From IMG/VR virus record IMGVR_UViG_3300035696_002535: a stretch of DNA of 46,352 nt. One strand, given 5' to 3'. Source of the DNA: a virus (taxonomy: Duplodnaviria; Heunggongvirae; Uroviricota; Caudoviricetes). Both the position numbers and the translations under genes were made by a program. The notes below the pieces were generated by a model, which saw nothing but the letters and a program-made list of their open reading frames with translations, was not told the DNA's origin and did no database searches. Positions 424 through 42,006 of this stretch are shown in pieces (the stretch's first letter is position 1; every line of letters begins with the position of its first letter).

Positions 424-1035
424 TTAAACCAGTTTCTCAAAAAGCTTCTCGTCGCCCTTGCAATAGTCCTTTAGCTTCTGCAGCCAGATCAGGCTTTTAA
501 TCTTGAACATGATTACGGGACCCTTCCTGGGATGCTTCGCCTTGCATACGACACCCTCCTCGGTCATGCCAGGAAGAGTGCTGTTTCTTACGGAATCTAC
601 GAAGGGTTGATTGGCGTTACCGTGATAAAGCAGTGGAGCTATCTTAAGGTGTCCATAAAGTCCCAGATAGTCAGCCGGTGGTATTATCCCCTTTTTAAAT
701 GGGGACACATCTATCAAAGATACTTCGTGGGGTTCTGAAATATGATGACCAGCAAAAGAGCTCTTCCCCCAGAACTCAAAAAAGGCCACAACGCTCTCGT
801 AACGCTCGTCTCTGAATATATCTCCTAAGTCTGCTTCAAACACCGATTTGATAAGGTCTATGGCCTCAGGAAGGAAAGGTTGATCTGAACCGATAAGACG
901 GTTTCTGCTCCCGAATTTGTAGAATCCCTTCTTGGGGGTCCACTCAGCTCGAATGTTCGATCCATCCAGTTTATTGAAGGCGTAAACCGGTAATCCGGGC
1001 TGGATCTTGTGACTTATGGTAGGGTATTCTTTCAT
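424..1035 (-). CDS. minimal RNA ligase (Rnl2-like nucleotidyltransferase domain only)
   Basis: Motif I KLDGSN, FFEF, motif IV EGVVCK, motif V MFKIK. Confidence 0.75.
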   Translation of the reverse strand: MKEYPTISHKIQPGLPVYAFNKLDGSNIRAEWTPKKGFYKFGSRNRLIGSDQPFLPEAIDLIKSVFEADLGDIFRDERYESVVAFFEFWGKSSFAGHHISEPHEVSLIDVSPFKKGIIPPADYLGLYGHLKIAPLLYHGNANQPFVDSVRNSTLPGMTEEGVVCKAKHPRKGPVIMFKIKSLIWLQKLKDYCKGDEKLFEKLV

Positions 1036-1681: not shown

Positions 1682-1763
1682 AAAAAAAGTGATTTAAAAA
1701 AATAAAGCCCGAATCGTATATTAAAAGTATCGCAAGAGATACTTTTTCAAAAAGGAGTGATTT

Positions 1764-2051
1764 ATGGCTAAACAATCCATCAATGCTTGGCTGTCAATGA
1801 AAAACAGCCTTCAGGCTAGGCTGGCCGAGGTCAAAGGGATGAAGTCAGAGGCTTCCTATAGACTTATCTCCGATTATGACGGAAGGAAAGAAGTCAGAGA
1901 GCCAACGTACGACATCAAGCAGATCGACAAAAAATCCGCAGCTCTTACGACAGCTCTGTTCAAAATCGACAGAGCCATTAAAGAGGCTAATGCAGCCACA
2001 AAAGTCGAGCTTGATGTGGACTATGACGCTCTCGTCGCACCTATAGACTAA
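1764..2051 (+). CDS. small helical protein resembling DIP1984/DUF6847 family
   Basis: SD AAGGAG and upstream TATATT (1717-1722); YDIKQIDKK...IDRAIKEANAATKVE resembles the DIP1984 C-terminal segment (from memory). Confidence 0.5.
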   Translation: MAKQSINAWLSMKNSLQARLAEVKGMKSEASYRLISDYDGRKEVREPTYDIKQIDKKSAALTTALFKIDRAIKEANAATKVELDVDYDALVAPID

Positions 2052-2056
2052 AACCG

Positions 2057-2280
2057 GAAGGGAGAGAGGTAGCTAGGTGTCTCTCCTAACGGAGAGGTAC
2101 CGAAGTAAGGATATAAGAGCTAGCCATACTGGTCGTCTTATGCGGAACCAAAATACTTTGTTGTCATAGAGTTCCGCAGGACAAAACAGTTATGCTTTGT
2201 TTTTGTGACCCGGATTCGTCCAGGTTTTGTTGTTGTAATTAGCTTTTAATCTTTATTGCTATCCCGACTCCCTTCTTTTT
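2057..2280 (+). ncRNA. candidate structured ncRNA (~220 nt)
   Basis: Nested helices 2057-64/2268-75, 2068-73/2258-63, 2105-12/2249-56, 2115-23/2239-47; hairpins 2076-2101, 2141-78, 2207-26 (UUCG loop); ends in a U-tract. Confidence 0.7.
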
Positions 2281-2294: not shown

Positions 2295-2726
2295 ATGCAA
2301 GATCTACAAAAACTCATGGACGACAAATTCATTGATACACTCATCTTGCTTTATTATGTCCGCTGCAGTGAGTACCGAAAAGCTTGTGAAGACAAAGATG
2401 AGGAAAATATTAAAGCTCTCGGTGAAGACTGCTCTGCATTTGAAGCTGTTGCAGAGGTGTTGGGGATCGACATATCCATCAGGAACCCGTATGAGTCATA
2501 TGAGTGCTGCGCAAACTGTCAGCACTGGGATGCTGTTTCGGTACTTGGCAACGATACCATAGAGCCGTGGAGCAAAATGCCGGAAGATGAGAAAAGATCT
2601 ATAGCCTATAGTGGCCGATGTGAAAAAATCCGTGAATCCATAGAGCCAGATGAGAACTGCAGCTATAAAAATATAATTACAGAAAAAGAATTCTGTTGTA
2701 ATCACTATGAGAAGTGGAGAAAATAG
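2295..2726 (+). CDS. hypothetical Cys-rich protein
   Basis: ORF track; CANCQHW...CCNHY. Confidence 0.75.
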   Translation: MQDLQKLMDDKFIDTLILLYYVRCSEYRKACEDKDEENIKALGEDCSAFEAVAEVLGIDISIRNPYESYECCANCQHWDAVSVLGNDTIEPWSKMPEDEKRSIAYSGRCEKIRESIEPDENCSYKNIITEKEFCCNHYEKWRK

Positions 2727-5698: not shown

Positions 5699-5959
5699 GT
5701 GCGCATGACAGAATTAAAAAGACGTGAGTACAACGACGGCACTATGGAAATGGCCATTGGGAGAGCAGTAATGCAGATTGTATTTAAAATATGCGATACA
5801 AGAGGCCAAAATAAGAAGGATACTATAACTCGTGAACAAGAGGATAAGATGTTTATAGAAGCAATTAGAGAAGTGTTTAAAAATAGAAGGAAATTTACGA
5901 TAGGGATATTATCTGTCGATCCCGGTATCCCTGCAGGAGATAAAAATGATCCATTCTGA
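5699..5959 (+). CDS. hypothetical protein
   Basis: ORF track; upstream TATATT 5682-5687. Confidence 0.65.
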   Translation: MRMTELKRREYNDGTMEMAIGRAVMQIVFKICDTRGQNKKDTITREQEDKMFIEAIREVFKNRRKFTIGILSVDPGIPAGDKNDPF

Positions 5960-7115
5960 AATCAAAAACAGATTCACCGGAGAAGTAGTGGCAAAAATAG
6001 AAACACAGTCCTCAATAGCGGTAGGAGACGATAGATATAAAAATATACAACTCCCCGAAACTGATTTACGAAGATCAAAATTTTCAAAGATGAATCTCCG
6101 GAAGGCTAACTTTTTTAGGGCAGTTCTGACAGACTCCAGTTTTGTTGAAGCAGATCTTCGAGGGGCGGATTTTTCCATGGCTGACCTATCCCATGCAGAT
6201 TTCTCCAAAGCGGACCTCTCAGGAGCCAACTTAGAGGAGGCAAACTGCGTTGGAGCCATATTCAAGGATGCCAACCTTTCCGATGCAAAGATGAAAGGAG
6301 CCAGATGTTCCAAGGCAAGCTTTATAGGAGCCATTATAGCGGGTGTAGACTTCAAAGGAGCCAGTCTGTTCAAGGCTAAGGGACTTTATAAGGTAATGGG
6401 CGTAGAGCCAGGGAACGTGTATTGGAAGAGGTTTAATCAAGGATTAAAGAGTAATGATTGCCATTTTCAGTATAAACTGGGTTTAAACGTTTTAACCCAA
6501 GACTTTGCTGGAGATGATAGGGAGACATGCTCATTTCCGGGCTTCCATTTTGGTTCAAAATCCTGGTGCTCCTGGAACTATCCCAACCGTCCATTGGAAG
6601 CGAAAGTAAGAATCCCCGAAGGAGCCCTTATAAACGAACCCTACGCCACAGACGGGACCGCTTCAGCAGACCGCATAGAGATTCTTCAGGTTTTTGATGC
6701 TGTTACTGGTGAAGATGTAACAAGTAAATTCAGAGGTATAGAAAATACAGGAAAAGTCTATCATAACAAAGCTAGAGTTTCCTGTAAATTCTGTGGAGCT
6801 GATAAAGCGACAAAAGAAGGCTACAGAAAGACAAAAGCAGGAAGTACCCAGAGATATTTTTGTCATAATTGCTACAGGTCCTTTTCTAGGAGAGGTAGAT
6901 CCTGGACTAGTGTAAACGACAAGAGCATAGTGAATGCCGCCCTACGCTTGTTTGCATCAGGATATGACTTAGACAAAATATCCTTGGAATTAAAAAGGAT
7001 TTTCAATATATGTCCTGCTTGGAAAACTATTGATAAATGGATAAAAGAAAACCAATGGAAAGGAAGTCACCATGAGCCCAAGAAGCCCGGCAACATCAAG
7101 CCCACAACCCTGTAG
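5946..7115 (+). CDS. pentapeptide-repeat protein fused to a transposase-like zinc ribbon + HTH
   Basis: A(D/N)LxxA repeats; C-terminal CKFC...QRYFCHNCYRSF then a helix-turn-helix-like segment. Confidence 0.75.
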   Translation: MIHSEIKNRFTGEVVAKIETQSSIAVGDDRYKNIQLPETDLRRSKFSKMNLRKANFFRAVLTDSSFVEADLRGADFSMADLSHADFSKADLSGANLEEANCVGAIFKDANLSDAKMKGARCSKASFIGAIIAGVDFKGASLFKAKGLYKVMGVEPGNVYWKRFNQGLKSNDCHFQYKLGLNVLTQDFAGDDRETCSFPGFHFGSKSWCSWNYPNRPLEAKVRIPEGALINEPYATDGTASADRIEILQVFDAVTGEDVTSKFRGIENTGKVYHNKARVSCKFCGADKATKEGYRKTKAGSTQRYFCHNCYRSFSRRGRSWTSVNDKSIVNAALRLFASGYDLDKISLELKRIFNICPAWKTIDKWIKENQWKGSHHEPKKPGNIKPTTL

Positions 7116-9361: not shown

Positions 9362-10552
9362 TTATTCCACGTATATTTCCATATCCTTAAGCTTCAACTT
9401 CTCGACCAGGTACTTCTCCAGGTGGGCTCGGGATTTGGCCTTTTCCATGGATTTAAAGAAGTCTAGAGCAGACTGTACCTTACCCTCGTAAAGCTGAAAC
9501 ATATAAGACGGGTTAGTAAGCTTCTGGACCCGTAGGGCAAACTCTTTCCGGTTTTCCTTGGTACGTTCCTTGGTAAGGTGTTCGGCCACATCCAAGGTGT
9601 CCTTGTTGAGCTGCTCAATATAAGCCAAATAACTTGCTTTTACCTTTTCAACAAATGGGGTGAACTCTTTGAAATAGCTCAGAAACTCGTTTTCATCCCC
9701 CTCCATTACAAGGCTCACTAAAGAACGAAGGCTCCTTCCAGCACGATCTTTAAGATGGTGTATGGCAACATAAGAAGGATTTTTGACTTTGACTCTCTTG
9801 TAGCTTAGACCGTCCTCGTCAGGAACAGAGTAATCCACGGCCACAAAACCCTCTTCTAGAGTGGCCAAACCTTTTGCAAGTTCTACAAGATTATCCTGAT
9901 CTCTAAAATCCACCACACCTGGCAGTGGGACCCCAAGAACAGTTGACTGCTGCTGAAGTTCTGACAATAAAAGCTCTCTCCAGGTAGAGACTTCACGCAT
10001 CATTAATAGATGTAAACTTCTCTCTTTGTAGATAGTAACAACCCTATTCTCTGGAGCCGTAAGTTCGAAATAATAGGTATAGGCTTTGTCGACCTTTTTA
10101 AGAAAGTCTGGGTACCTTTCAGCCGTTTTATAAAATAGATCCCGAAAAGATATGGAAAACAGCCCCACATTGGATGAGTTCTCGATCACGCTCCTGGTCG
10201 ACATCAACCACTTGTCTTTGTAGTTGAAATAGGAAATCAAAGACCCATCCAGCTTTTGAAGCCCTACAGCTTTCAGGAAGTCGAAACCATCCGTGATCTG
10301 GGGGACTTCTTCATAGTTGTAGAAGCGTTTAAAGGGATAGGACACTATATTCCAAGTATCCTTCTCCAAGATCAGTCCACGGCACTCCATTACAATTGGG
10401 TGTGTCTTGGGAGAATCTGTTTGGCTGTACCCTAGGCAAACGAGATCATCATAGAGGTTGTATTCGATTCCTAGTTCATCCTTGAGTTTATTCAGGGCTT
10501 GTTCAGCTGGAAGGCCAAATGATCGAAGATATTCTTGGACTTTGAGGACCAT
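9362..10552 (-). CDS. rnl1: T4 Rnl1-family RNA ligase
   Basis: CRGLILE...SYPFKRFYN, KLDGSLI, FELTAPENRVV, EEGFV, RVKVKNPSY. Confidence 0.9.
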   Translation of the reverse strand: MVLKVQEYLRSFGLPAEQALNKLKDELGIEYNLYDDLVCLGYSQTDSPKTHPIVMECRGLILEKDTWNIVSYPFKRFYNYEEVPQITDGFDFLKAVGLQKLDGSLISYFNYKDKWLMSTRSVIENSSNVGLFSISFRDLFYKTAERYPDFLKKVDKAYTYYFELTAPENRVVTIYKERSLHLLMMREVSTWRELLLSELQQQSTVLGVPLPGVVDFRDQDNLVELAKGLATLEEGFVAVDYSVPDEDGLSYKRVKVKNPSYVAIHHLKDRAGRSLRSLVSLVMEGDENEFLSYFKEFTPFVEKVKASYLAYIEQLNKDTLDVAEHLTKERTKENRKEFALRVQKLTNPSYMFQLYEGKVQSALDFFKSMEKAKSRAHLEKYLVEKLKLKDMEIYVE

Positions 10553-19233: not shown

Positions 19234-19905
19234 CTATTCGTGAGGACTTTCACAAGGCACCACTTCAGTAACCACGCCTTGTCTATTCAGTTGACTTACA
19301 ATCTTCTGCTGTTGTGAAGGACTGACATCCGCTTCGAATTCCACAATTGATTGCGTCCCAGATAGTGATACCCTGAAATGGCTCATTGTTATTTTTAACC
19401 CCGCCAATAGTTGCTGGATTTCAGTGGCTACATTATCTGCATGACTTGTAGTGAACCTGAATGCCATGATACATGATTTTAAATTCAGAACGTTTTCACC
19501 CCAAAACAAAAATACCAATGCAAATAAAACTAGTCCAGTAGCGGTTGCACCGACCTTAAACAAACCTCCTCCGCATGCCATACCTATAGCTGCTTCTACA
19601 AAGATGGTTGCAGCGGTAGTCATCCCTGTCAGTCCACCATACCCCGCTCTATCTCGAAGGATGGCACCAGCTCCCAAAAATCCAATACCTGGGATGATTT
19701 CGGCTGCGATACGAGTGAAGTTTTCGTCCCCCCACAGCTTCGACAGTTCGTAAGAGAGGACGGTAAATAGGGCAGAGCCTAGACAGACAAACATGCTTGT
19801 GCGAACACCTGCAGGACGTCGGTGTAGGTCTCTCTCGGTGCCTATGGCTATACCCATAACACCAGCAAACAGCAGTCTCAGGAGGATCTGGCTGTATGAG
19901 AGCAT
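19234..19905 (-). CDS. mgtC: MgtC/SapB-family membrane protein with C-terminal ACT-like domain
   Basis: IGTERDLHRRPAGVRT, RIAAEIIPGIGFLGAGAIL, GMTTAATIF. Confidence 0.9.
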   Translation of the reverse strand: MLSYSQILLRLLFAGVMGIAIGTERDLHRRPAGVRTSMFVCLGSALFTVLSYELSKLWGDENFTRIAAEIIPGIGFLGAGAILRDRAGYGGLTGMTTAATIFVEAAIGMACGGGLFKVGATATGLVLFALVFLFWGENVLNLKSCIMAFRFTTSHADNVATEIQQLLAGLKITMSHFRVSLSGTQSIVEFEADVSPSQQQKIVSQLNRQGVVTEVVPCESPHE

Positions 19906-21001: not shown

Positions 21002-21799
21002 TCATACCGCCTTTGTATGAATCTTATATTTCTTGTTAAAATCACGGATTATTATTCGGAACTCATTGGGTAACATTTTTATAACTGGAACTGCTAGGCT
21101 CTTCGGGATCTCATCATAGTAAGCCTGGGCTATAGCCCCTGAGATGCAAGCTTGGGTATCTGTATCCCCTCCTAAGGATATCGCCAGTCTTATGGTATCT
21201 TCATAATCATGCCCATCTAGAAAAGCGATAATCGCTTCTGGGACAGACTCCTGGCAGGCACTAGTGAAGTGGTAGTGAGGTCGAATTTGATCACAGGTTC
21301 TGTTTAAATCGTATCCAAAAGTCTTTGTCAGGATGCTACGGATCTCTTCCTTGGGAAGTTTTAAGCGTGCTAGGTATACAGCCAGAGCCGCTGCCTGAGC
21401 TCCTTTGATACCTTCTGGATGACCGTGGGTTACATGGGCGCTTCTTTCAGCTTCCTTAAGCACATCGTCCGGGGTCTCAAAAGCCCATCCTACTGGACTT
21501 ACTCTCATTGCACAGCCATTTCCAAAGCTGTTGATAGGCTCTATGGTGTCAGCTTTTACCCATTCTCGAAAAGCGGAACCGTAGCCTCTGTTTGGATACT
21601 TACGTGCATAGGATTTATACAAAGTGGCGTAGTCTCCACCGATGAGGAGCGCCTCAGAAGTGGCAACGGTTAAAACAGAATCATCAGTAAAGGTTGCCTT
21701 GAAAACATCATTCGTAACGAACATAGGAAAGTCATACTTTTTGAATCCTTGATGCTCAAAAATACTTCCTGCGACGTCTCCAATGATTCCGCCTATCAT
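21002..21799 (-). CDS. ADP-ribosylglycohydrolase (DraG/ARH family)
   Basis: GGIIGDVAGS, FTDDS, SFGNGCAMR, LGGDTDT. Confidence 0.9.
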   Translation of the reverse strand: MIGGIIGDVAGSIFEHQGFKKYDFPMFVTNDVFKATFTDDSVLTVATSEALLIGGDYATLYKSYARKYPNRGYGSAFREWVKADTIEPINSFGNGCAMRVSPVGWAFETPDDVLKEAERSAHVTHGHPEGIKGAQAAALAVYLARLKLPKEEIRSILTKTFGYDLNRTCDQIRPHYHFTSACQESVPEAIIAFLDGHDYEDTIRLAISLGGDTDTQACISGAIAQAYYDEIPKSLAVPVIKMLPNEFRIIIRDFNKKYKIHTKAV

Positions 21800-23298: not shown

Positions 23299-23991
23299 TT
23301 ATTCTTCATTATTACATTGGCAATGAGGATCCTTTTTCCAACAGCTTTTACAATAGTCCCCAGTAATCTCTGCTCTTTGTTCATCCGTAAGAGCAGCAAA
23401 AGCCTCTTTAACTATTGAGAGGTCCAAAGCACGGTTGCCTATGTTTTTAATAAACTCTTTAGGCACCTTATCCGTCATCCAAACACCGTTCTCTGATAAA
23501 TAAAACAAATAACCAGCCTCATCCATCTTTTTACTATCTATAACAAGCACGACTGGCTTCCCGTGTCTTGATCCTACTTTGTATGCTGTTTCATAATTTA
23601 ACGAAAGATGCACGAACTGTCTGCCTTTTTTCTCTAGACCTGTACTCCTTATAGCATCTAAAAACTTAATGGAAGTCCCGTGATAAAGTACGTCCGGGGG
23701 AACTTCAGGACTTAATCCAAGATCCACTTTCAGGGAATGCCCCTGGACTGCCCTTATCATCTGTTTATCTTCGCTGAAAGCGAATCTCTTTTTTTCGTTT
23801 GTATTGACAATCTCCTCTAATATGTCACGATTAAACGGCTCAGTACCACAAATTCCCTGAGCATTAGCCAGAGCAATCAGACTATTAACAGAAGCCCACC
23901 CGTTTGCATCCAGAGTGAGTCCTATGGCTTCTGGCTTATGTCGAAGGACTAGACTGAGAAATTTACTTCGAGATACTAATTCTGGCCTCAT
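23299..23991 (-). CDS. kptA: RNA 2'-phosphotransferase Tpt1/KptA with short Cys-rich C-terminal extension
   Basis: SKFLSLVLRHKP, KKRF, IRAVQGHS, LYHGT, FVHLS, NGVWMTD; start moved to MRPELV. Confidence 0.92.
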   Translation of the reverse strand: MRPELVSRSKFLSLVLRHKPEAIGLTLDANGWASVNSLIALANAQGICGTEPFNRDILEEIVNTNEKKRFAFSEDKQMIRAVQGHSLKVDLGLSPEVPPDVLYHGTSIKFLDAIRSTGLEKKGRQFVHLSLNYETAYKVGSRHGKPVVLVIDSKKMDEAGYLFYLSENGVWMTDKVPKEFIKNIGNRALDLSIVKEAFAALTDEQRAEITGDYCKSCWKKDPHCQCNNEE

Positions 23992-24002
23992 AAAAATCCC
24001 TG

Positions 24003-24335
24003 TTACCAAATGTCTCCCCATTTTTTTGTGAATAACGAAAAGACAGCTTTGATTATGTTTAACCCTACAAAAAACAAAATGGACCAAATAGTTCCAAATA
24101 CGGGATAATACAAAAGAAAAAATATTACCGCTGCAATTCCCGGTAACTTATCAACCCATTTTCCAAAAGAGGTACGTTCGGTTTCACGGTAATAATAACC
24201 TGTTTCGGTACCAAAAATAGATATATAGGGGGTATCATATTTTATCCAATGCCCCCCAGTTATTTTTGTCAGCAATGAGGCGGGAGTCCAATCATTTTTC
24301 CATAAGAACTTAAAAAGCTTTTTGATATTGTTCAT
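24003..24335 (-). CDS. membrane protein
   Basis: ORF track. Confidence 0.7.
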   Translation of the reverse strand: MNNIKKLFKFLWKNDWTPASLLTKITGGHWIKYDTPYISIFGTETGYYYRETERTSFGKWVDKLPGIAAVIFFLLYYPVFGTIWSILFFVGLNIIKAVFSLFTKKWGDIW

Positions 24336-25821: not shown

Positions 25822-26769
25822 TTAAACTGCGTTAATCTCTGCCGCAATGTCCTCTGCAAGTGATATCCCTTCGAAAGGTGGATAGTTTCCAAGGCCATCC
25901 GTTGCAGTCCCTAACTCTCGACCGACAGTACAAGAGTCTGTAACCCATATCTTACTGAAAGATGCGTTCTGAAATTTCTTCCACGCCTCGCAAGGAAGAA
26001 CCCCGTGAGTAGCGTAAGCACTAACGCTTGAGGCACCAGCATGAAACAAAGTCTCTTTACAGTTTATAAGAGTATCTCCATTTCGAATCATGTCATCAAT
26101 AATAATGATATTTGAACCTGTAACATCACGATGCCCTTCTTTGATCGTTACTACACGGTTCTCATCTTTTGTGCAAATTATGCAAGGATCAGGGAAAAAG
26201 GTATGAAATCTTTTTCTTGCCCCTTCGTCCGGGAAAGCGAAAATGTACTTCTTATGAATGTAGTGGAGTCTTCTAAAAAGTAAAGGTATAGCCGACTTTA
26301 GTTCTATGATAATCCCATCCGAATGAAAATGCTGAACAGCCAAAGAATGAATGTCATATATGATGAGCTTGGCAGGCCCACTTCCATGACAAGAAGGGAT
26401 AGCATTCAGCATGCGCATGAGCGTCTTTGCTGTTGCTATCTGCCCTGGTTCATCTACTCTCTCCATGGTGGCCGTAGGAAAATACGGCAGGAAGATTGTT
26501 AAAGATTTTGCACCATAATGAGGCAGAGCATACAGCACGCTTAACTGGGCAAAGAGGTTTTCGGGTTTCTCTAAACTCGCAAAAAAGAAAACATTAGATC
26601 CTTTAATTGCCGAGGGATCCTCAAACATTGTGTTAGGATAGTCATCTGCAAATTTTTTCCAACAAATTTCAGAGATACAGGTGTCTGGTGTATTTATGGT
26701 GTTTCTGAAAACTTTTACACCAAATTCTTTCAGCTCCGGGCACCACATCAGGGTCTTATTCATGATCAT
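25822..26769 (-). CDS. prs: ribose-phosphate pyrophosphokinase, class II (plant PRS3/4-like)
   Basis: WKKFADDYPN, LPYFPTATMERV, IYDIHSL, AFPDEGARKRF, IIDDMIRNGDTL, AYATHGV. Confidence 0.85.
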   Translation of the reverse strand: MIMNKTLMWCPELKEFGVKVFRNTINTPDTCISEICWKKFADDYPNTMFEDPSAIKGSNVFFFASLEKPENLFAQLSVLYALPHYGAKSLTIFLPYFPTATMERVDEPGQIATAKTLMRMLNAIPSCHGSGPAKLIIYDIHSLAVQHFHSDGIIIELKSAIPLLFRRLHYIHKKYIFAFPDEGARKRFHTFFPDPCIICTKDENRVVTIKEGHRDVTGSNIIIIDDMIRNGDTLINCKETLFHAGASSVSAYATHGVLPCEAWKKFQNASFSKIWVTDSCTVGRELGTATDGLGNYPPFEGISLAEDIAAEINAV

Positions 26770-26926: not shown

Positions 26927-27904
26927 CTATTTCCTTTCCTTGAGTACTTCCGTGTTCTCGATCCAGGCCGCGAAATAAGGTGGTGAGTCCTCCGTCTGCC
27001 TCAATATGATTAGGAAGGGTTCATCAAAAATGAACTTCCTCGGGGCTTCTCGACTGATCATAGCCGCGTAACGCATTGTCAACATAGCTTCTGACCGTAG
27101 CTTTGCACCGCATTCGTCAAGGTCAAACTTTATGAACTGGACAGCCTCGTCTATGTAATAGCCAGTTTCTTTATTCTTAGGTTTTTTGGATATCAAAACC
27201 TCATTCCCCTTGAGCTCATCAAAATGATGCTCAAGATCAAACGATATTTTTGGTATCTGAAGAGTTTCATTTTTACGTAAATCGGTAGCCTCATCTATCT
27301 CTAGATTAGCCAAAGTACGTTTAAAAGTGTCCCCCGGTTGAAGTCTAGCCAGAGTGATAAACTCTTTCTGCTTGGTTTTAATTGATAGGGTAAATTCTGA
27401 GGGGCTCTCGTAGTGAAGAATTTTTACCTGATGCGTAAGTTTTGTCAGGTGCTCTGACTTCACTTCCTCGATCCCGAAAGCTTCCACCGGTTTACCCATG
27501 AACTCAAAATAATCTATCTTCTCAAACTTTTGTTCGAACTCAAGGATCTTTAGAAGAAAGGCGTAAGCAATTATGTCTGTGGGCTCCAGATTGGAGAAAT
27601 TACATTTGGACATCTCATTGAAATTTTGCTTAAGGGTGCCCTTAATCTTATCCACGATCCCATTTTTACAGAGCCCCGCCAGAGCTATATAACATTTAGG
27701 GTCAAGGTCTGTTTTCTTGAATGACCGTTTGTTTAGCTCCTTCACTGCTGTCTCTGTAACTGTCTCTCCGTTAGGCAACACTATGTCCCCGCCAACGAAA
27801 TCACAAAGCTCATTCCAGGCAAGCTGCATGGTTGAGCAGTATATCAGGTTTTCACCTTTGGTGATCTTTTCATTAAGATGACAAGTTATTTTTGTGTTTT
27901 CCAT
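26927..27904 (-). CDS. serpin-fold protein
   Basis: LQIPKISF...QFIKFDLDECG...FIFDEPFLIILR. Confidence 0.6.
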   Translation of the reverse strand: MENTKITCHLNEKITKGENLIYCSTMQLAWNELCDFVGGDIVLPNGETVTETAVKELNKRSFKKTDLDPKCYIALAGLCKNGIVDKIKGTLKQNFNEMSKCNFSNLEPTDIIAYAFLLKILEFEQKFEKIDYFEFMGKPVEAFGIEEVKSEHLTKLTHQVKILHYESPSEFTLSIKTKQKEFITLARLQPGDTFKRTLANLEIDEATDLRKNETLQIPKISFDLEHHFDELKGNEVLISKKPKNKETGYYIDEAVQFIKFDLDECGAKLRSEAMLTMRYAAMISREAPRKFIFDEPFLIILRQTEDSPPYFAAWIENTEVLKERK

Positions 27905-31275: not shown

Positions 31276-31938
31276 CTAAGACTTTTTGTACAGATTATGG
31301 TTTTTGATATATTCCAAGATGTCTGGATTCAGATATCGTTTAACATACCCACTAGCCAATGTTAAACAAAGATCTGTCGAGACATTAACAGATCTATAGT
31401 GATAATTAGAAAGCAGATTTAAAGCATTTCTAAGGCTTGTAGAAGAGACGTTTGGAGTTGGTTCTTCCGGTATGAGCAACATATGTGGATGTTTGCAATA
31501 CCAGGCTCCTTTAGATTTTAATTCTATCCCAGCCCTCGGGATTACAACAAATCTAGCGATCTTTTTCAGTTTCTTGTACTCAAACCATTTGTCAAAACTG
31601 ACCGCGTTGTCCCCTCCAATAGCGAAATAATAGTCGTATTTTTCTTTCGCACCGCTCTCCGATAGGAGTTGTTTAGCAAGATAGTAGGTTTCACCACCAA
31701 GTTTATTTTTAATTTCATAGTTGGAGACTTTTATTCTGTTGTCACATTCAGCAACAATCCTGCACATCTCTAGGCGATTTTTTGCTGGAGCCATCTGTTT
31801 CCCGTACATGTGCTCGTAACAAGGCATTAAAAGTACTTTATCGAAGTGTTTCAAAAGAAGGCTCATTATGGCCACATGCCCGGCGTGAGGCGGATCACAA
31901 GAAGAACCTAGAATAGCCACTGATATTTTCTTTTTCAT
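31276..31938 (-). CDS. nadD: nicotinate/nicotinamide nucleotide adenylyltransferase
   Basis: GSSCDPPHAGH, IGGDNAVSFDKW, VSSTSLR. Confidence 0.88.
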   Translation of the reverse strand: MKKKISVAILGSSCDPPHAGHVAIMSLLLKHFDKVLLMPCYEHMYGKQMAPAKNRLEMCRIVAECDNRIKVSNYEIKNKLGGETYYLAKQLLSESGAKEKYDYYFAIGGDNAVSFDKWFEYKKLKKIARFVVIPRAGIELKSKGAWYCKHPHMLLIPEEPTPNVSSTSLRNALNLLSNYHYRSVNVSTDLCLTLASGYVKRYLNPDILEYIKNHNLYKKS

Positions 31939-36969: not shown

Positions 36970-38013
36970 TTAAAACCACTTGTCATAAATCCTTTGGTAC
37001 TCTCCGCTCTCCTGGAGCTCTAAAATAGCCCTATTGATCTTGGATCTCCACGGACTGCCTACAGGGAGAGCAAAGCCATAGTTCTGAGTCCGTATGGAGA
37101 ATGGAGCTACCATATAGCCCTTATTTTTACTTGCATATTGAAGTAGTGGAGGAGCATCAAAAATGACGACCTTAACCTTATCCAGAGCCAACAATTTCAA
37201 AGCCTCCGGCAACCCTTTAACTTTGATCACCTTGGAGCCTATGTTTTCATCCTGGATTACATCAGCCGCATAACAGTCCTCTACCGTTGCGATTGGTTTA
37301 TCCCTGAGGTCTTTCAAGCAAGTAACCTCAGAAGTGGTCCTATCAAACTGGATGTTATTTGTGATCATCCCCAGATAGTACGCAAAAAGGGATAGGCCAG
37401 TTACGATCATCATCCCTACCAGGATCTTCCCTACTGCCGTTTTTGCCGTCCTGTCACCATATCCTACCGTACTTAAAGTTACCAGGACAAAAAGACAATA
37501 GTCCAGGATAAGCCACAGAAAGAATTTGCCCTTATTCTCAGGCATCTTTCGTTCTATGACCCAGAATATACTACCCCATATCAAAGCGAAGGCTAGAATG
37601 ATTACAATGAGCCTTAAAACCCCATCCTGGGATATGGCGAACCAGATAGCATGCAAACTGCTCTCCTTATCGGCTTTTACAAGGGCTTTTATGTCCGCTT
37701 CCAGGTAAGGATGTGTGAAATCTAAAGACTTCTCCCGTTTTGAGGTTATCGTTATTCCTCCGATACCTAGATCTGCAGATCCAGACTTAACGTTGATAAA
37801 GATGTCTTTAAAATTAACCTGTCTATACTGATAGTTGGTCAATCCCACACGCTCAGAGATTTTATTGAAAAGGTCTATGTCAAAGCCATATGGTTTATGA
37901 GAGGAGTCTACCATAGCGCAGGGTTGGACTATGTCGCTATAGTTGACTATGAAGGGCTTTTCATTGCTGAAAGCTGAAATGACTAAGGCGAACATCAGCA
38001 GTTGTTTTTTCAT
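36970..38013 (-). CDS. GluR0-like ligand-gated potassium channel (split solute-binding domain around a TM-pore-TM unit)
   Basis: GFDIDL, GITITSKREKSLDFTHPY, filter STVGYGD, YGFALP...INRAILEL. Confidence 0.85.
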   Translation of the reverse strand: MKKQLLMFALVISAFSNEKPFIVNYSDIVQPCAMVDSSHKPYGFDIDLFNKISERVGLTNYQYRQVNFKDIFINVKSGSADLGIGGITITSKREKSLDFTHPYLEADIKALVKADKESSLHAIWFAISQDGVLRLIVIILAFALIWGSIFWVIERKMPENKGKFFLWLILDYCLFVLVTLSTVGYGDRTAKTAVGKILVGMMIVTGLSLFAYYLGMITNNIQFDRTTSEVTCLKDLRDKPIATVEDCYAADVIQDENIGSKVIKVKGLPEALKLLALDKVKVVIFDAPPLLQYASKNKGYMVAPFSIRTQNYGFALPVGSPWRSKINRAILELQESGEYQRIYDKWF

Positions 38014-38273: not shown

Positions 38274-39494
38274 TTAACTTACCGTAAGCTTTTTCTCTTC
38301 GAGTGGAACTTCTGCAGAGCACTCGATTGGACTTTTTACCGGTCGAATAAGTTTTTCACTGATATGAACACGGTTTGGATGTTCGTTTGCAAATATCAGA
38401 TAAGGATTTGGCATGGTATTACTTTTTATTTTCTGCTTTATCTCAATTTCAGAATATATTGGATCAAGCCCAATACCATGAGCCACAAGATATGAAAAAG
38501 GGGCATTTTTTAAATCTATAGGTTTAAACAGCTCGCCTTCTTTTCCTCTAAGTAGATCTCCTTCAAGAAGACTTCTTAAGGAAAAATACTGATGGTCACC
38601 GTTATTTAATCTTTTAAATTCTCCTGTAAAAAAGCACAAAGGGAGCCCTATTCTTACTGAATAGAAATCTTCAGGTTTTGCAAAAGGGCTCTCTGACTCC
38701 GGATCTGGAGACCATACAGAAGTTCTATATCTATCTGAGAGAAAAGTCAAAACTCTACAGGGAATTGTGCTGCCATAGTTCGCATATGTGCTATCAAAAT
38801 AGCGTGATTGTATCTCATATGTCTGTCTATCAGGAGAGCTATAACTAAGACTAATTTCGGTTTCCGTAAAACTTTCAGAAAACTGACAACGGGTTATCTC
38901 AGCCACCCCAGCATAGTCTACAGGAAAAAACTGGCTTACATATCCATATTGCGGAGAAAACTGCATTGCGTATTTTACATGAAAAGATAACTCACTTCCG
39001 GAAATCATGGCCGTGACATCCTTCTTAAGCTCTTTCTCTAACGTATGGAAATTTCTAGGAAAATCTTTATGTGGCTCGTTATATCTATCCTCAATATACT
39101 TAGCAAAACGAAAACAGGTTTCCATTCCAAGAATAACAAGAAGAGAACTACCGGTCCTCTGAAAAAGCTTATTGATCCATTCTCTTATCATCCCATTATA
39201 AATCCTATTAAAACTCTTTAAATCGTAGACGTCCCTAGAATTTGTGTCTATTCGATACGGTTCCCGTTTTGCCTCTTCTTCTGGAACGAAAATTATATCA
39301 GCCACATAGTGGCCAAAAAATTCATGAGATAAAAAATCCTGTAATAAATAGATGTAATAACTTTTATCTATCACATCATCATCATTATTTGATCTTCTTG
39401 CAAATTCTTTTGCAGATTCAAAAATATCAACCGTTCCCCAGGGATGGGTTGGACTTTGAGTATACTTCGGTTTTGCAATTATGCTTTTTGTCAT
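38274..39494 (-). CDS. hypothetical protein
   Basis: ORF track; SD GGAGG. Confidence 0.8.
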   Translation of the reverse strand: MTKSIIAKPKYTQSPTHPWGTVDIFESAKEFARRSNNDDDVIDKSYYIYLLQDFLSHEFFGHYVADIIFVPEEEAKREPYRIDTNSRDVYDLKSFNRIYNGMIREWINKLFQRTGSSLLVILGMETCFRFAKYIEDRYNEPHKDFPRNFHTLEKELKKDVTAMISGSELSFHVKYAMQFSPQYGYVSQFFPVDYAGVAEITRCQFSESFTETEISLSYSSPDRQTYEIQSRYFDSTYANYGSTIPCRVLTFLSDRYRTSVWSPDPESESPFAKPEDFYSVRIGLPLCFFTGEFKRLNNGDHQYFSLRSLLEGDLLRGKEGELFKPIDLKNAPFSYLVAHGIGLDPIYSEIEIKQKIKSNTMPNPYLIFANEHPNRVHISEKLIRPVKSPIECSAEVPLEEKKLTVS

Positions 39495-39529
39495 AATAAA
39501 CCTCCGTTAATCTGCTAAGAGTGAAAATC

Positions 39530-39835
39530 TCAGCTTGGTTCTAGATCTGGTAAGGGACAGTCCGGATCGATCCACTCGTCGTTAAGATTGCGAAACGTAA
39601 AAGTACAAGGACGGTATATCCCCAGCAGTCCGCCGCACTGCAAACAGCTATGTATCTTTATTTTTAGCTCTTTCTTGGCAGGTACAGACTTATTCTCTTC
39701 TTCCTTAGTCTGATTGGTTATCAATTTGGCTAAAGCTGCATCGGCAACTCTCTGCCCAAAAGTGTGTATTGAGATGTTATCGAACCTCACGCCCTTGGCT
39801 AATTGTTCTTCGTACCATTCTTCATACAGCGGCAT
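39530..39835 (-). CDS. hypothetical protein (start moved to MPLYEEW)
   Basis: ORF track; SD GGAGG. Confidence 0.7.
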   Translation of the reverse strand: MPLYEEWYEEQLAKGVRFDNISIHTFGQRVADAALAKLITNQTKEEENKSVPAKKELKIKIHSCLQCGGLLGIYRPCTFTFRNLNDEWIDPDCPLPDLEPS

Positions 39836-40325
39836 TTTTACCTCCAGCTTCAGCCAATTCCCAAAAGCATTTATAGCATACCTTCGCATGCACTATACCA
39901 TCAGGCCATTTTAAATCACCAAGATGACATCTTTCGCAAACCTCTGTGCCCTCTAGGGCTACGAAAGGGACTCGTCGATTCCACACAGCCAAAGCAGCAC
40001 GCGCATTGTCTCCGCTGGTAACTGCTCCACACTCTGTGCAAAACAAGAATGTTATGTCTCCAATTTGGTGAAGCAAGGTACCTGTATTGCCACAAAAAGC
40101 GCAGGATAAAACATCTACCTTCTTTTGGGTTCCTATCTCCACTGCTTTTAAAGGAGTCCGTCTATTCCACGCATTTAAAGCATCACGTATGTCCTTCATG
40201 TAGTTGGTAGCTACACCACAATCTATGCAACAGAAGCAGGTCGTACCTTCGATTGTGTGTGGCAAAATGGTAGTTCCGCCACAGAGAGGACAAGGCAAAA
40301 CTTTTAGATTTTCTGTATCAGACAT
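39822..40325 (-). CDS. tandem Lar-family zinc ribbon protein
   Basis: Two repeats of CxxCG...CxxCG...A...WNRR. Confidence 0.75.
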   Translation of the reverse strand: MSDTENLKVLPCPLCGGTTILPHTIEGTTCFCCIDCGVATNYMKDIRDALNAWNRRTPLKAVEIGTQKKVDVLSCAFCGNTGTLLHQIGDITFLFCTECGAVTSGDNARAALAVWNRRVPFVALEGTEVCERCHLGDLKWPDGIVHAKVCYKCFWELAEAGGKNAAV

Positions 40326-40351
40326 TTTAAGTTCTCTCCGTGCTTTCTTAT

Positions 40352-40546
40352 TTACTTTTCGTAATTGAAATGAACCGAATATATAATAATGTTTCCATCT
40401 TCTAGTCCTATTTGCTTAGCAAGCTGTTTGGCTAATGAAGCAAATGTCCTCTCAGCATTAACATCTTCTAGCTCAGCCTCTATTCCTCCGACAGCACAAG
40501 TATGGCTATGCTCGTCTTTAAGCCCTTTTCCGATTTTAATTTTCAT
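40352..40546 (-). CDS. hypothetical protein
   Basis: ORF track. Confidence 0.6.
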   Translation of the reverse strand: MKIKIGKGLKDEHSHTCAVGGIEAELEDVNAERTFASLAKQLAKQIGLEDGNIIIYSVHFNYEK

Positions 40547-40550
40547 ATCT

Positions 40551-40721
40551 TTATTCCGCTTTTAGGTCTTCACAGTGTTTTATTTCTCCGCCGAACATTT
40601 CCTTATAATCCTTGGCTACCGACCATGTAAATTTTATCGATTTTTTCTTATCGGGATAAACCACGACCCACACAACACGGTCGAGTAGTTTATGGAAAAA
40701 TCTCCTTATGGCCTTAAGCAT
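40551..40721 (-). CDS. hypothetical protein (56 aa, MLKAIRRFFHKLL...)
   Basis: Hand translation; follows promoter 40741. Confidence 0.6.
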   Translation of the reverse strand: MLKAIRRFFHKLLDRVVWVVVYPDKKKSIKFTWSVAKDYKEMFGGEIKHCEDLKAE

Positions 40722-40740
40722 AGATACCCCTCCCTATTCC

Positions 40741-40769
40741 AATATACTTTTTTGGACAGGCAGAGCCGA
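40741..40769 (-). promoter_or_regulatory. recurrent promoter (TCGGCT-17-TATATT)
   Basis: AAAAAAGTATATT motif. Confidence 0.65.
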
Positions 40770-40777
40770 CAACTATT

Positions 40778-40993
40778 TTATACTTTTTGCCTGAAGTCTC
40801 TCAAAGTTCTGTCTTTGTAATCTCCCACAGCCAGGAGGATCGACTTCCAATAGTGCCCTTCGAAAGTCTTACCCTTGTCGTCAAGAGCCCAGGTAACGAA
40901 CTCCCTTTTATCCATATCAAAACAGAGCACATAGAGCGGCGTTTGGTGGAGGACTAAAGCTGTTCCATCATTCAATAAATCTCCTATCTGCAT
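40778..40993 (-). CDS. hypothetical protein
   Basis: ORF track; SD AAGGAG. Confidence 0.7.
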   Translation of the reverse strand: MQIGDLLNDGTALVLHQTPLYVLCFDMDKREFVTWALDDKGKTFEGHYWKSILLAVGDYKDRTLRDFRQKV

Positions 40994-41005
40994 AAAGGCT
41001 CCTTT

Positions 41006-41395
41006 TTAGATTTCAGGTCCGTAGAAAGATACTTCGCAAAGACCCGTGTATTGCTTTGCGGCTTTGGCATTGGCCGACTGGGACAGCTTAGGATCCCAGT
41101 TGCAGTGGTAACATGCCCGTACGGAGTGACCGTCTTCATCAAATCCAGACCATATGCAGAACTTCTTCTTGGCTATTAAGCAGGCATGGGTATAGAACTG
41201 AGAAAAGAAAAAATCCGACATTCCAGAAATAATAGTATTATCGTTGCTCGGGATTTCCACGCTAGGGTCATCAGGGCTACACTTGTATTTGAAATTATAG
41301 CGGTATCCACAGGCTGGGCAGAGCTCCCAATCACTCCAGTTCTTCGCTGGCTTGCCACATCTCCTGCATTTAAGTTCAGGCATAGAGTCACTCAT
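41006..41395 (-). CDS. Cys-rich hypothetical protein
   Basis: CRRC...CPAC...CYHC. Confidence 0.7.
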   Translation of the reverse strand: MSDSMPELKCRRCGKPAKNWSDWELCPACGYRYNFKYKCSPDDPSVEIPSNDNTIISGMSDFFFSQFYTHACLIAKKKFCIWSGFDEDGHSVRACYHCNWDPKLSQSANAKAAKQYTGLCEVSFYGPEI

Positions 41396-42006
41396 ACTTT
41401 CTGTTCCACCTTTTCAAAGAGAGGTCCTTGGACTTTTTTCCGATCCCAATGCCTTGAGAAATCCCCAACATCTCTGGACCTAATCAGGGCATCAATTTCT
41501 TTCCTTTCGTCTTCATTAAGATTAACCTTCAGGTACCACGAAGGGAAGCCTAGAGAGTCAAGACCAGATATATGGTTCTCATAAGCATGAATAATGTTTT
41601 CTATTCCATCTGTTCTCCAACAAGACTCGTGGTATGAAGCTAGCATCCAACCGGTGTTCCCTACGGTGTAGTCTTTCCCTGGCTTTACACAATCCTTTTC
41701 GTTATCGAGATCCTCTTCTGGAATAATAATCCAGTCTTCTTGTACCAAAACAGCAACATAATTCTGAGGGCCATAAATGCGGATCTGAAGATGCCTGTAT
41801 CCTTCTTCACCTTCGTATCGACCCAAACGGAAAGTGATCTCCATGGCACTATACTCAGTTCCCTCCTTCTTCGAAAACATAGGATCCTGGTTACGTCCAA
41901 CATTCTTATCAAATTCCTGGCAAATGATATCCCCCAATACCCAACTCAGCATATAGCCTCCTTCAATTTGAAGTATCTTCCAATTCAATTCTTTCGTATT
42001 CATCAT
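41392..42006 (-). CDS. hypothetical protein
   Basis: ORF track. Confidence 0.75.
   Translation of the reverse strand: MMNTKELNWKILQIEGGYMLSWVLGDIICQEFDKNVGRNQDPMFSKKEGTEYSAMEITFRLGRYEGEEGYRHLQIRIYGPQNYVAVLVQEDWIIIPEEDLDNEKDCVKPGKDYTVGNTGWMLASYHESCWRTDGIENIIHAYENHISGLDSLGFPSWYLKVNLNEDERKEIDALIRSRDVGDFSRHWDRKKVQGPLFEKVEQKV

What the first reader, a model, noticed from the sequence alone, without database searches (positions are those of the whole stretch)
1764..2280. Small DIP1984-like protein gene followed immediately by a ~220-nt highly structured RNA with UUUGUU repeats: candidate new protein-RNA system
Seen: a self-contained + strand unit (TATATT at 1717, SD, 95-aa ORF). Six nt after the stop begins an RNA with four nested long-range helices: GAAGGGAG/CUCCCUUC, GGUAGC/GCUAUC, GUAAGGAU/AUCUUUAU and AAGAGCUAG/UUAGCUUUU. 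It also has an 11-bp hairpin with a UAAC loop (2076-2101), an 8-bp UGCGGAAC/GUUCCGCA helix, a UUCG-capped hairpin (2207-2226) and a terminal U5. Three U/G tracts recur: CUUUGUUGUC (~2157), GCUUUGUUUUUGUG (~2195) and GGUUUUGUUGUUGU (~2223). It does not resemble any tRNA, tmRNA, SRP or riboswitch I know. From memory, the protein resembles the DIP1984/DUF6847 C-terminal helix. Inference: an oligomeric helical protein binds the repeated UUGU motifs of its cognate RNA.
Basis: partly seen in the sequence, partly recalled or inferred. Interest (0 to 1): 0.8.

Follow-up and report, generated by a model that had tools for sequence, protein, structure and literature searches.

The report
Huge-phage protein gene with dedicated RNA
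A small gene in an uncultured huge phage is almost always followed by a conserved, tightly folded RNA of about 225 bases that displays three UUGUUGU units; the RNA is in no RNA catalogue, and the pair is probably an undescribed protein-RNA particle whose job is unknown.

Summary
The 95-aa ORF (1764-2051, +) is a real, conserved gene. It belongs to a family of 226 clusters at 50% identity, nearly all about 91-100 aa and mostly viral. The 225 nt after its stop (2056-2280) fold at -82.5 kcal/mol (z -6.3).

The same architecture follows the gene in 19 of 22 distinct loci I examined, including proteins only 30-40% identical. It has a closing helix P1, hairpin P2, a long purine:pyrimidine helix P3, and hairpin P4 with UUGUUGU in its loop. 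Two more UUGUUGU units lie 3' of P4.

Covariation is strong: 27 of 32 pairs show compensatory changes, and 86% of cells are paired against 36-52% in slid registers. G-U pairs (79) far outnumber A-C (19), which fixes the + strand. Rfam 15 has no match.

The protein is a remote, short relative of DUF6847/DIP1984, below the curated cut-offs, and is predicted to form a homodimer. Direct binding to the RNA is inferred, not shown; the family is charge-neutral.

This scan has noted DIP1984-like gene plus repeat-bearing RNA pairs on other DNA before. Here the protein is a 95-aa short form and the RNA carries three dispersed UUGUUGU heptamers. The function is unknown.

The parts
1693..1722 (+). Promoter-like site (TTTAAA, 18 nt, TATATT)
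   Evidence: Consensus scan. A similar TATATT lies upstream of the gene in L001, L017 and L021. Function is inferred only.
1752..1757 (+). Shine-Dalgarno AAGGAG, 6 nt before the ATG
   Evidence: Read from the sequence. A GGAG-type site sits at the same distance in nearly all homologous loci.
1764..2051 (+). 95-aa coiled-coil protein gene, a short remote relative of DUF6847/DIP1984
   Evidence: ORF list. 41 close homologs at 60-83% identity. 226 clusters at 50% identity by profile search. Weak PF20935/NF038048 hits. AF2 model with pLDDT 84. Homodimer predicted.
2056..2073 (+). P1 5' strand (closing helix); starts 4 nt after the stop codon
   Evidence: MFE fold. Covariation in A2: 13 P1 pairs, most with compensatory changes. 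Per-sequence partner table.
2076..2101 (+). P2 hairpin (11 bp, UAAC loop); position conserved, sequence variable
   Evidence: A hairpin is present at this place in all homolog folds.
2104..2122 (+). P3 5' strand (purine-rich)
   Evidence: It pairs with the pyrimidine-rich 3' strand in 14 of 15 homologs, with UA/CG/UG/AU/GC exchanges.
2135..2182 (+). P4 hairpin (12 bp with a 2-nt bulge); apical loop carries heptamer unit 1, UUGUUGU, at 2158-2164
   Evidence: Of the 15 pairs predicted on the core alignment (12 in P4), 12 have compensatory changes. UGUUGU is invariant in 15 sequences. The core covariance model R1 hits the window only here, 86.9 bits.
2195..2205 (+). Unit 2, degenerate in this phage (UUUGUUUUUGU); UUGUUGU(UGU) in homologs, usually 39 nt after unit 1
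   Evidence: Alignment A2/A5. Spacing table.
2207..2226 (+). Lineage-specific hairpin between units 2 and 3
   Evidence: Present in the window, L001, L005 and L016 only.
2227..2236 (+). Unit 3, UUGUUGUUGU, predicted unpaired (P unpaired 0.91)
   Evidence: UUGU is invariant in the alignment.
2240..2257 (+). P3 3' strand (pyrimidine-rich)
2258..2280 (+). P1 3' strand followed by a U run (probable 3' end of the transcript)
   Evidence: A U run follows P1 in most close homologs. In L008 and L009 a canonical GC hairpin plus U tract follows the RNA.

Best explanation
**What is shown.** 1764-2280 is one transcription unit of an uncultured huge phage. It makes a 95-aa helical-hairpin protein and, from the same transcript, a structured RNA of about 225 nt. 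The RNA family is real and conserved, lies on the + strand, has no Rfam match, and stays next to this protein family.

**The RNA scaffold.** P1 and P3 stack into a closed rod, with P2 as a side arm. The rod holds open an inner domain that displays three copies of the heptamer UUGUUGU. One copy is in the P4 loop. Two lie in the weakly paired 3' segment, at near-fixed spacing.

**Proposed mechanism (inferred).** Dimers of the protein dock on these units and form a ribonucleoprotein particle. Encoding the two parts together on one transcript would keep them together. The particle would then act in trans on host or phage RNA metabolism. The direct protein-RNA contact and any downstream role are not shown.
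For: **Structure**
- The window RNA folds at -82.5 kcal/mol, z -6.3.
- In a sequence-only MAFFT alignment of 15 homologs, 27 of 32 predicted pairs have compensatory changes.
- 85.8% of cells pair, against 36-52% in slid registers and 70.1 +/- 1.2 in column shuffles.
- P1 and P3 pair in the individual folds with many pair types.

**Strand**
- 79 G-U against 19 A-C cells.
- The reverse-complement consensus energy is -7.9 against -19.3.

**Coupling to the gene**
- The RNA follows the gene in 19 of 22 distinct loci.
- This includes six proteins only 30-40% identical to the window's (L010, L012, L024-L027). For L024, L025 and L027, fold z is -4.6, -4.2 and -6.4.
- The genes on either side of the pair differ between loci.

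**Units**
- UUGUUG/UGUUGU blocks occur at 8.5 per kb in the 320 nt downstream, against 0.58 per kb elsewhere on the same strand.
- The units are more often unpaired than the rest of the RNA (0.51 against 0.35).

**Protein**
- The family is conserved.
- A homodimer is supported by the model, not shown. ipSAE is 0.59 and the best of 3 controls is 0.00. That mark was reached by 20 of 30 proteins solved as pairs and 1 of 23 solved as single chains. The runs agree in at least 96% of contacts, and the partner pLDDT is at least 83.

**Specificity and 3' end**
- The core covariance model hits only the expected sites, once in the 46-kb window.
- Terminators directly after the RNA in L008 and L009 place the RNA at the 3' end of the gene's transcript.
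Against: - No test of protein-RNA contact was possible.
- The family is not basic: median pI 6.3 and median net charge 0.
- Nearly all invariant residues (R19, L23, Y49, K73, N76, A77, L90) lie in the predicted dimer interface. Their conservation therefore needs no RNA.
- Fold searches give only generic helical-hairpin matches.
- Three loci lack an intact RNA. L003 has the next gene directly after the stop. In L022 and L023 an inserted resolvase/TnpB-like element cuts the RNA. The protein gene can therefore persist without the RNA.
- L026 has the architecture, but its folding energy is not significant (z -1.1).
Confidence: 0.45

Rival explanations
1. The RNA works without the neighbouring protein. 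It could be a sponge or decoy that soaks up a host RNA-binding protein or nuclease recognising U/G-rich single strands. Or it could be a base-pairing RNA whose three UUGUUGU seeds pair with ACAACAA-type (CA-rich) sites. In either case the ORF is co-transcribed but has another task.
For: - Three short units are displayed in a loop and in linkers, which is the design of sponge RNAs such as CsrB/RsmZ and CrcZ (established knowledge).
- The complement of the units is the CA motif, which gave the only weak Rfam echo: CrcZ on the minus strand, 10.9 bits.
- The units stay invariant while the protein diverges to 30% identity.
- The protein is not basic.
Against: - The RNA stays next to this one protein family through very different gene neighbourhoods, which a free-standing sponge would not need.
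- I found no enrichment of ACAACAA near start codons in the window or in the 5' leaders of the gene.
- The host is unknown, so no host partner can be named.
Confidence: 0.3
2. The RNA is a cis-acting 3' untranslated element of the ORF's own mRNA. It would act as a stabiliser and terminator, perhaps with feedback: the protein binds its own 3' end, or ribosomes terminating 4 nt before P1 open the helix.
For: - P1 begins 4-12 nt after the stop codon in nearly all loci.
- The RNA ends in a U run or is followed by a terminator.
- There is no separate promoter-like site for the RNA.
Against: - A stabiliser or terminator does not need about 225 nt with four covarying helices and three invariant heptamers at fixed spacing.
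- Loci without the RNA still keep the gene (L003, L022).
Confidence: 0.15
3. The pair is a toxin-antitoxin-like or abortive-infection pair of type III style, in which a protein is neutralised by a structured RNA.
For: A small protein is tightly linked to an RNA with repeated units, and the cassette appears mobile across phage genomes.
Against: - The protein has no endoribonuclease fold or family match.
- The RNA has no tandem repeat array and lies after, not before, the protein gene.
- No PADLOC search was made.
Confidence: 0.03
4. The signal is at the DNA level: an origin, a packaging or recombination site, or chance palindromes.
For: The minus strand also folds well as a single sequence (-75 kcal/mol, z -6.1).
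Against: - G-U pairs far outnumber A-C (79 against 19), and the consensus structure is much weaker on the reverse complement.
- Compensatory changes keep RNA pairing.
- The element always has the same orientation relative to the gene.
Confidence: 0.02

Closest known systems
DIP1984 family / Pfam DUF6847 (PF20935; NCBIfam NF038048; crystal structure 3KDQ of Corynebacterium diphtheriae; often annotated 'septicolysin')
   Same: - There is remote sequence likeness to profile positions 64-140 of 141, including the conserved ...AIKxSNAxT... motif.
- 3KDQ is among the better Foldseek rows (TM 0.61).
- The nearest Atlas clusters partly carry PF20935.
   Different: - The protein is only 95 aa and lacks the N-terminal third.
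- It scores below both curated cut-offs.
- It is virus-borne.
- The family itself has no known function, so the likeness explains nothing mechanistically.
CsrA/RsmA with the sponge RNAs CsrB, RsmY, RsmZ (and Hfq/Crc with CrcZ)
   Same: A small dimeric protein is paired with an RNA that shows several copies of one short motif in hairpin loops and single-stranded linkers.
   Different: - The motif is UUGUUGU, not GGA or a CA repeat.
- There is no CsrA or Hfq fold.
- The RNA has a closed P1/P3 scaffold.
- Gene and RNA sit on one transcript.
TRAP (MtrB) with the trp leader, and HutP with the hut terminator RNA of Bacillus subtilis
   Same: An oligomeric protein reads repeated triplet-based units ((U/G)AG; here the units are built of UUG triplets) on one RNA.
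   Different: - Those are ring proteins of beta-rich fold that regulate attenuation in a 5' leader.
- Here the protein is a helical hairpin.
- Here there are three units on a 3' structured RNA, and no downstream gene is consistently controlled.
Ro60 (Rsr) with bacterial Y RNAs (YrlA/YrlB), some in RNA-repair operons
   Same: - A dedicated protein is paired with a structured non-coding RNA whose 5' and 3' ends form a long closing helix.
- The pair occurs in phages and bacteria.
- Here RNA ligase genes lie nearby (424-1035 and 9362-10552).
   Different: - No TROVE-domain protein was found among the ORFs scanned.
- There is no Rfam Y RNA match.
- The RNA has no tRNA-like domain.
Rop (Rom) of ColE1 plasmids
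   Same: A small helical-hairpin protein forms a four-helix-bundle dimer and binds structured RNA although it is not basic.
   Different: - Rop binds a kissing complex of two RNAs without sequence specificity.
- There is no homology.
- No cognate RNA is encoded beside rop.
Stable RNAs of unknown function in phage T5, and the structured region after T5.085
   Same: The 388 nt that span the gap after T5.085 (L146 43120-43507, minus strand) fold into a closed structure (-98 kcal/mol, z -5.3). T5.085 carries IKSNAET- and SESNAST-like motifs.
   Different: - Homology of T5.085 to this family was not shown here: no Pfam hit, and hhalign probability is 4-9%.
- The T5 region has different repeat units, and R1 does not hit it.

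Membership tests
DIP1984 / DUF6847 (PF20935, NF038048) | Score at or above the curated cut-off of the family model | tested here: not met
   Window protein: PF20935 14 bits (cut-off 27), NF038048 15.9 bits (cut-off 70). Best family member: 26.3 bits. 45 of 98 members hit weakly.
DIP1984 / DUF6847 (PF20935, NF038048) | Full-length architecture of about 141-150 residues | tested here: not met
   The protein is 95 aa and aligns only to profile positions 64-140 of 141. 226 related clusters are nearly all 91-100 aa.
DIP1984 / DUF6847 (PF20935, NF038048) | Fold like the solved member 3KDQ | tested here: inconclusive
   Foldseek 3kdq_C: E 1.4, TM by query 0.61, rmsd 4.5 over 78 columns. Prefoldin and other helical hairpins score alike. 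A profile search of PDB sequences found nothing.
Any Rfam 15 RNA family (4227 models) | Covariance-model score at the gathering threshold | tested here: not met
   No match at gathering thresholds in the whole window. With permissive filters only chance-level rows appear: whalefall-1 17 bits (cut-off 37) and CrcZ 10.9 bits (cut-off 95).
Type III toxin-antitoxin (ToxIN, CptIN, TenpIN) | Tandem array of RNA repeats upstream of an endoribonuclease toxin gene | tested here: not met
   There is no tandem repeat in 2040-2300. The RNA lies downstream of the gene. No nuclease family or fold match was found.
Csr/Rsm sponge RNA with CsrA | Multiple GGA motifs in loops; CsrA-family protein | tested here: not met
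   The conserved units are UUGUUGU. There is no CsrA hit in Pfam.
TRAP / HutP RNA targets | Six to eleven (G/U)AG or UAG triplets at regular spacing in a 5' leader, with a ring-forming beta-rich protein | tested here: not met
   There are three dispersed UUGUUGU units 3' of the gene. The protein model is a helical hairpin.
Ro60-Y RNA | TROVE-domain protein and a Y RNA (Rfam YrlA and relatives) | tested here: not met
   There is no Y RNA match. No TROVE hit appeared among the window ORFs scanned. Not every ORF of the window was scanned.
Simple intrinsic terminator | Short GC-rich hairpin with a 3-8 nt loop, followed by a U run | tested here: not met
   The scan finds none on the + strand in 1300-2900. 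The U run follows a helix that encloses about 185 nt.

The most novel reading that the evidence does not exclude
DUF6847-type proteins and their short phage relatives are the protein half of a widespread, undescribed class of ribonucleoprotein particles. Each subfamily would read its own short unit displayed on a closed scaffold RNA encoded directly behind the gene. This window shows a minimal form: a 95-aa single-domain protein acting as a homodimer, with three UUGUUGU heptamers. Huge phages would use the particle to manipulate host RNA metabolism or RNA-targeting defence.
Probability: 0.4. Interest if true: 0.85.

Novelty: categorically new. Interest (0 to 1): 0.72.

Why it matters
Structured non-coding RNAs of this size with strong covariation and no known function are rare. 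One that is tied to a single protein family gives a direct experimental handle: co-express the two, pull down the complex and solve its structure. DUF6847/DIP1984 has had a crystal structure since 2009 but no function. A dedicated RNA partner would supply the first functional clue for it and for hundreds of phage proteins. The pair is spread through huge phages that also carry RNA-repair, NAD/ADP-ribose and CRISPR genes. It may therefore be part of the phage-host conflict over RNA.

Caveat: the rating 'categorically new' rests on finding no match in Rfam 15 and in the papers searched here. The mechanism is still unknown. This scan has already noted related pairs on other DNA.

Tried and rejected
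**Searches for more copies**
- IMG/VR protein scans found nothing with the single protein. The close alignment found one distant locus, L012.
- One scan of genome contigs found no confirmed relative.
- tblastn against 50,697 cultured-phage records and against plasmids gave no match.
- blastn of 1600-2800 against phages gave no match.
- An IMG/VR scan with two UUGUUGU units gave 118 loci. None encodes a family member. The two that scored weakly with model R1 lie antisense to Asn/Thr-rich or Gln-rich genes. The motif pair alone is therefore not diagnostic.

**Expression**
- No RNA holder is listed. Only two peat-metagenome DNA runs hold the stretch.

**Technical limits**
MAFFT Q-INS-i is not installed. 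P3 was therefore documented from per-sequence folds, not from a structural alignment.
- No whole genome is held for the window.

**Ideas that failed**
- A short hairpin (P5) around unit 2 appears in some sequences only and is not predicted by RNAalifold. I dropped it.
- I looked for ACAACAA target sites. TTGTTGT on both strands gives 16 matches against 7 expected, and three of the 16 lie inside the RNA. The leaders of the gene show no consistent site.
- Homology of T5.085 to this family is inconclusive. PHROGs labels T5.085 'tail fiber protein', which I did not examine.
- I considered whether the RNA is a tracrRNA for the phage CRISPR array 43 kb away. Reading the RNA against the repeat showed no anti-repeat, and I ran no formal search.
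- Literature searches for DIP1984/DUF6847/septicolysin and for UUGUUGU found only annotation mentions and eukaryotic RNA-binding proteins (CELF, Brat).

Full report
**What is in the sequence**

The region is a compact + strand unit.
- A promoter-like TTTAAA-18-TATATT lies at 1693-1722.
- AAGGAG lies at 1752-1757, followed by a 95-aa ORF at 1764-2051.
- Four bases after the stop, about 225 nt run to a U tract at 2276-2280. They hold no ORF of 40 aa or more on the + strand.

Folded alone, 2052-2285 gives -82.5 kcal/mol, against -56.6 +/- 4.1 for dinucleotide shuffles (z -6.3).
- P1: 2056-2073 with 2258-2276.
- P2: hairpin 2076-2101.
- P3: 2104-2122 with 2240-2257.
- P4: 2135-2148 with 2171-2182.
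- A local hairpin at 2207-2226.

Exact UUGUUGU occurs at 2158-2164 in the P4 loop, and at 2227-2236 as UUGUUGUUGU. A degenerate copy lies at 2195-2205.

**The protein is real and belongs to a large unnamed family**

A word-indexed search found 41 proteins at 60-83% identity, all about 95 aa and all from metagenomes. An exhaustive profile search found 226 clusters at 50% identity with E up to 1e-3, nearly all 91-100 aa. The conserved pattern is TINEAL...R..EL..LR...EPxYDVKxVDxKI...LF..DxAIKxSNAxT...D...LLxPLE.

Pfam and NCBIfam give only sub-threshold hits to DUF6847/DIP1984.
- The window protein scores 14 and 15.9 bits, against cut-offs of 27 and 70.
- 45 of 98 members hit weakly. The best scores 26.3 bits.
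- The hits always cover profile positions 64-140 of 141.

The family is therefore a short, mostly viral, remote relative of DUF6847 and not a member by the curated tests. The protein-language search agrees.

The AlphaFold2 model (pLDDT 84) is a two-helix antiparallel hairpin with short strands at the tips and ends. Fold searches return only generic helical hairpins:
- prefoldin beta;
- GreA N-terminal-like entries;
- ribosomal uL29;
- 3KDQ, the solved DIP1984 protein, at TM 0.61.

None of these stands out.

Two copies are predicted to form a dimer in which the N-terminal strand and the C-terminal segment of each copy pack against the other copy.
- ipSAE is 0.59, and the best of 3 controls is 0.00.
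- That mark was reached by 20 of 30 proteins solved as pairs and by 1 of 23 solved as single chains.
- The runs agree in at least 96% of contacts, and the partner pLDDT is at least 83.

This supports self-association but does not show it.

**The RNA is a conserved family**

I fetched the DNA around homologs from JGI metagenomes, IMG/VR and the gene-position index. Several contigs are 110-314 kb. They carry gp32, RNase H, NrdD, NMNAT and similar genes, so they are huge phages.

In 13 of the 16 distinct loci whose protein is 60% or more identical to the window's (the window included), the stretch after the stop has the same plan. Two further loci hold exact copies (L006 = L005, L014 = L013), L019 holds a near-identical one (same R1 score as L018), and L004 ends too early to judge.

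A MAFFT alignment of 15 of these RNAs, made without structural information, gave an RNAalifold consensus of 32 pairs in P1, P2 and P4. Of these, 27 show compensatory double changes.

My own counts on that alignment:
- 85.8% of cells are paired, against 36-52% when the 3' partner is slid by 1-3 columns.
- Column shuffles give 70.1 +/- 1.2 (maximum 74.6).

P3 is a long purine:pyrimidine helix that MAFFT misaligns. It is paired in 14 of 15 individual folds, with UA, CG, UG, AU and GC at the same columns.

The strand is settled: 79 G-U cells against 19 A-C, and the reverse complement reaches only -7.9 against -19.3 kcal/mol in the consensus fold.

Invariant nucleotides are concentrated in the three U/G units: UGUUGU in the P4 loop, then UUG, then UUGU. 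Units 1 and 2 start 39 nt apart in 10 of the 15 aligned sequences.

**The coupling reaches deep into the protein family**

Six proteins only 30-40% identical to the window's are each followed by a closed RNA. It has a long outer helix, a side hairpin, an inner hairpin with UUGUUGU in or beside its loop, and further UUGUUG units. These loci are L010, L012, L024, L025, L026 and L027; L011 (30%) ends after 68 nt and cannot be judged.

Folding z-scores are -4.6, -4.2 and -6.4 for L024, L025 and L027. L026 is not significant at -1.1.

Over all 22 loci, UUGUUG/UGUUGU blocks occur at 8.5 per kb in the 320 nt after the gene, against 0.58 per kb elsewhere on the same strand.

The genes on either side of the pair differ from locus to locus:
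- RNA ligase here;
- NMNAT, DUF488 or PP2C in several loci;
- RNase H and NrdD, Prim-Pol and RecA, or ParB and a methylase in others.

The pair therefore travels as a cassette.

A covariance model of the core (P4 plus units, R1) hits the 46-kb window once, at 2131-2236 (86.9 bits). In other loci it hits only the expected sites. Its weak hits in unrelated loci lie antisense to low-complexity coding sequence.

There are exceptions.
- L003 has the next gene directly after the stop.
- In L022 and L023 a serine-recombinase plus TnpB-like element sits inside the RNA, and the 3' half is gone.

**What it is not**

- Rfam 15 has no match at gathering thresholds in the whole window. With permissive filters only chance-level rows appear.
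- ARAGORN finds no tRNA or tmRNA.
- There is no tandem array and no nuclease-like protein, so it is not a type III toxin-antitoxin pair.
- The units are not GGA (Csr/Rsm) and not spaced (G/U)AG triplets (TRAP, HutP).
- No Y RNA model matches, and no TROVE protein was found among the ORFs scanned.
- It is not a plain terminator, because the U run follows a helix enclosing about 185 nt.
- In L008 and L009 a canonical terminator follows the RNA. This places the RNA at the 3' end of the gene's transcript.

**How it most likely works**

Shown: a conserved + strand RNA scaffold presents three copies of one heptamer, and it is genetically tied to one protein family that is predicted to dimerise.

Inferred (confidence about 0.45): the dimers bind the units and form a particle. 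Encoding on one transcript would ensure assembly.

Evidence against this:
- The family is charge-neutral (median pI 6.3).
- Almost all invariant residues fall in the predicted dimer interface.
- The gene survives without the RNA in three loci.

The main rival (0.3) is that the RNA acts alone. It could be a sponge for a host factor that reads U/G-rich single strands, or an antisense RNA against CA-rich sites. I found no excess of such sites.

A purely cis-acting 3' element (0.15) is hard to square with the size and the invariant units.

Nothing here says what the particle does. The nearby RNA ligases (424-1035, 9362-10552) and Tpt1 (23299-24087) make a role in RNA damage or repair conflicts a reasonable guess, but only a guess.

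**Earlier notes of this scan**

After forming the reading above, I looked up earlier findings. Several agents had reported a DIP1984-like gene followed by a repeat-bearing structured RNA. They saw this in other phages (including T5), in bacteria and on Acinetobacter plasmids. The kind has therefore been found before on other DNA.

I tested one of these leads.
- The 388 nt that span the gap after T5.085 fold into a closed structure (-98 kcal/mol, z -5.3).
- T5.085 carries IKSNAET- and SESNAST-like motifs.
- Neither Pfam nor hhalign links T5.085 to this family, and R1 does not hit the T5 RNA.

That link stays open. What is particular here is the short 95-aa protein and three dispersed UUGUUGU units rather than a row of about ten.

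**Verdict**

- The RNA family is uncatalogued in Rfam 15 and absent from the papers I could search.
- The protein family has no known function.
- Interest is high for RNA and phage biologists, because the pair is directly testable.

Noticed in passing
window 43334-46352: The window carries a CRISPR adaptation module: Cas2 (43334-43627), Cas1 (43637-44668) and Cas4 (44672-45325), all on the minus strand. It is followed by an array of at least 15 repeats of about 32 nt with 65-68 nt spacing, which runs off the window end. The ORFs upstream (38274-43088) have no Pfam match and could include an unrecognised effector.
   Followed up: partly
window 424-1035, 9362-10552, 23299-24087: There are two RNA ligase genes (PF09414-like and T4 Rnl1-like) and a Tpt1/KptA RNA 2'-phosphotransferase. 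This is an RNA-repair toolkit, and one ligase lies 0.7 kb from the protein-RNA cassette.
   Followed up: partly
window 21002-21799, 25822-26769, 31276-31938: The window holds an ADP-ribosylglycohydrolase, a PRPP synthetase-like gene and an NMNAT-type cytidylyltransferase. These are NAD/ADP-ribose genes of the kind noted elsewhere in this genome by earlier agents.
   Followed up: no
window 36970-38013, 19234-19905, 26927-27904: Unusual cargo for a phage: a glutamate-receptor-like ligand-gated ion channel (SBP_bac_3 plus an ion-channel pore), an MgtC-family protein and a weak serpin-like ORF.
   Followed up: no
window 5946-7115: A pentapeptide-repeat protein of 389 aa has a Cys-rich C-terminal part resembling a zinc-ribbon or transposase-like DNA-binding region.
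   Followed up: no
window 2295-2726 and L001 about 910-1100: The Cys-rich 143-aa ORF after the RNA (with the motif CCANCQHWD) has a counterpart after the RNA in L001 (CSSCYHWD). It is absent after the RNA in the other loci, so it is not part of the cassette.
   Followed up: partly
L022 1689-3226 (also L023): A serine recombinase (Resolvase) gene plus a 405-aa SSO2105_N-type protein, an IS607-like pair, is inserted in the RNA after its P3a hairpin. The 3' half of the RNA is missing. A copy of the same 405-aa gene type lies upstream of the cassette in L018.
   Followed up: partly
L018 3289-3490: About 200 nt are inserted between the stop codon and the RNA in this locus. They contain internal direct repeats (GTGCTGGGATT...) and a small ORF, so adjacency of the stop codon and P1 is not absolute.
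   Followed up: no
L146 (phage T5, AY543070) 43120-43507, minus strand: The unannotated gap after T5.085 folds into a closed structure (-98 kcal/mol, z -5.3). PHROGs calls T5.085 a 'tail fiber protein', which looks doubtful for an early-region gene.
   Followed up: partly
I did not examine them.
   Followed up: no
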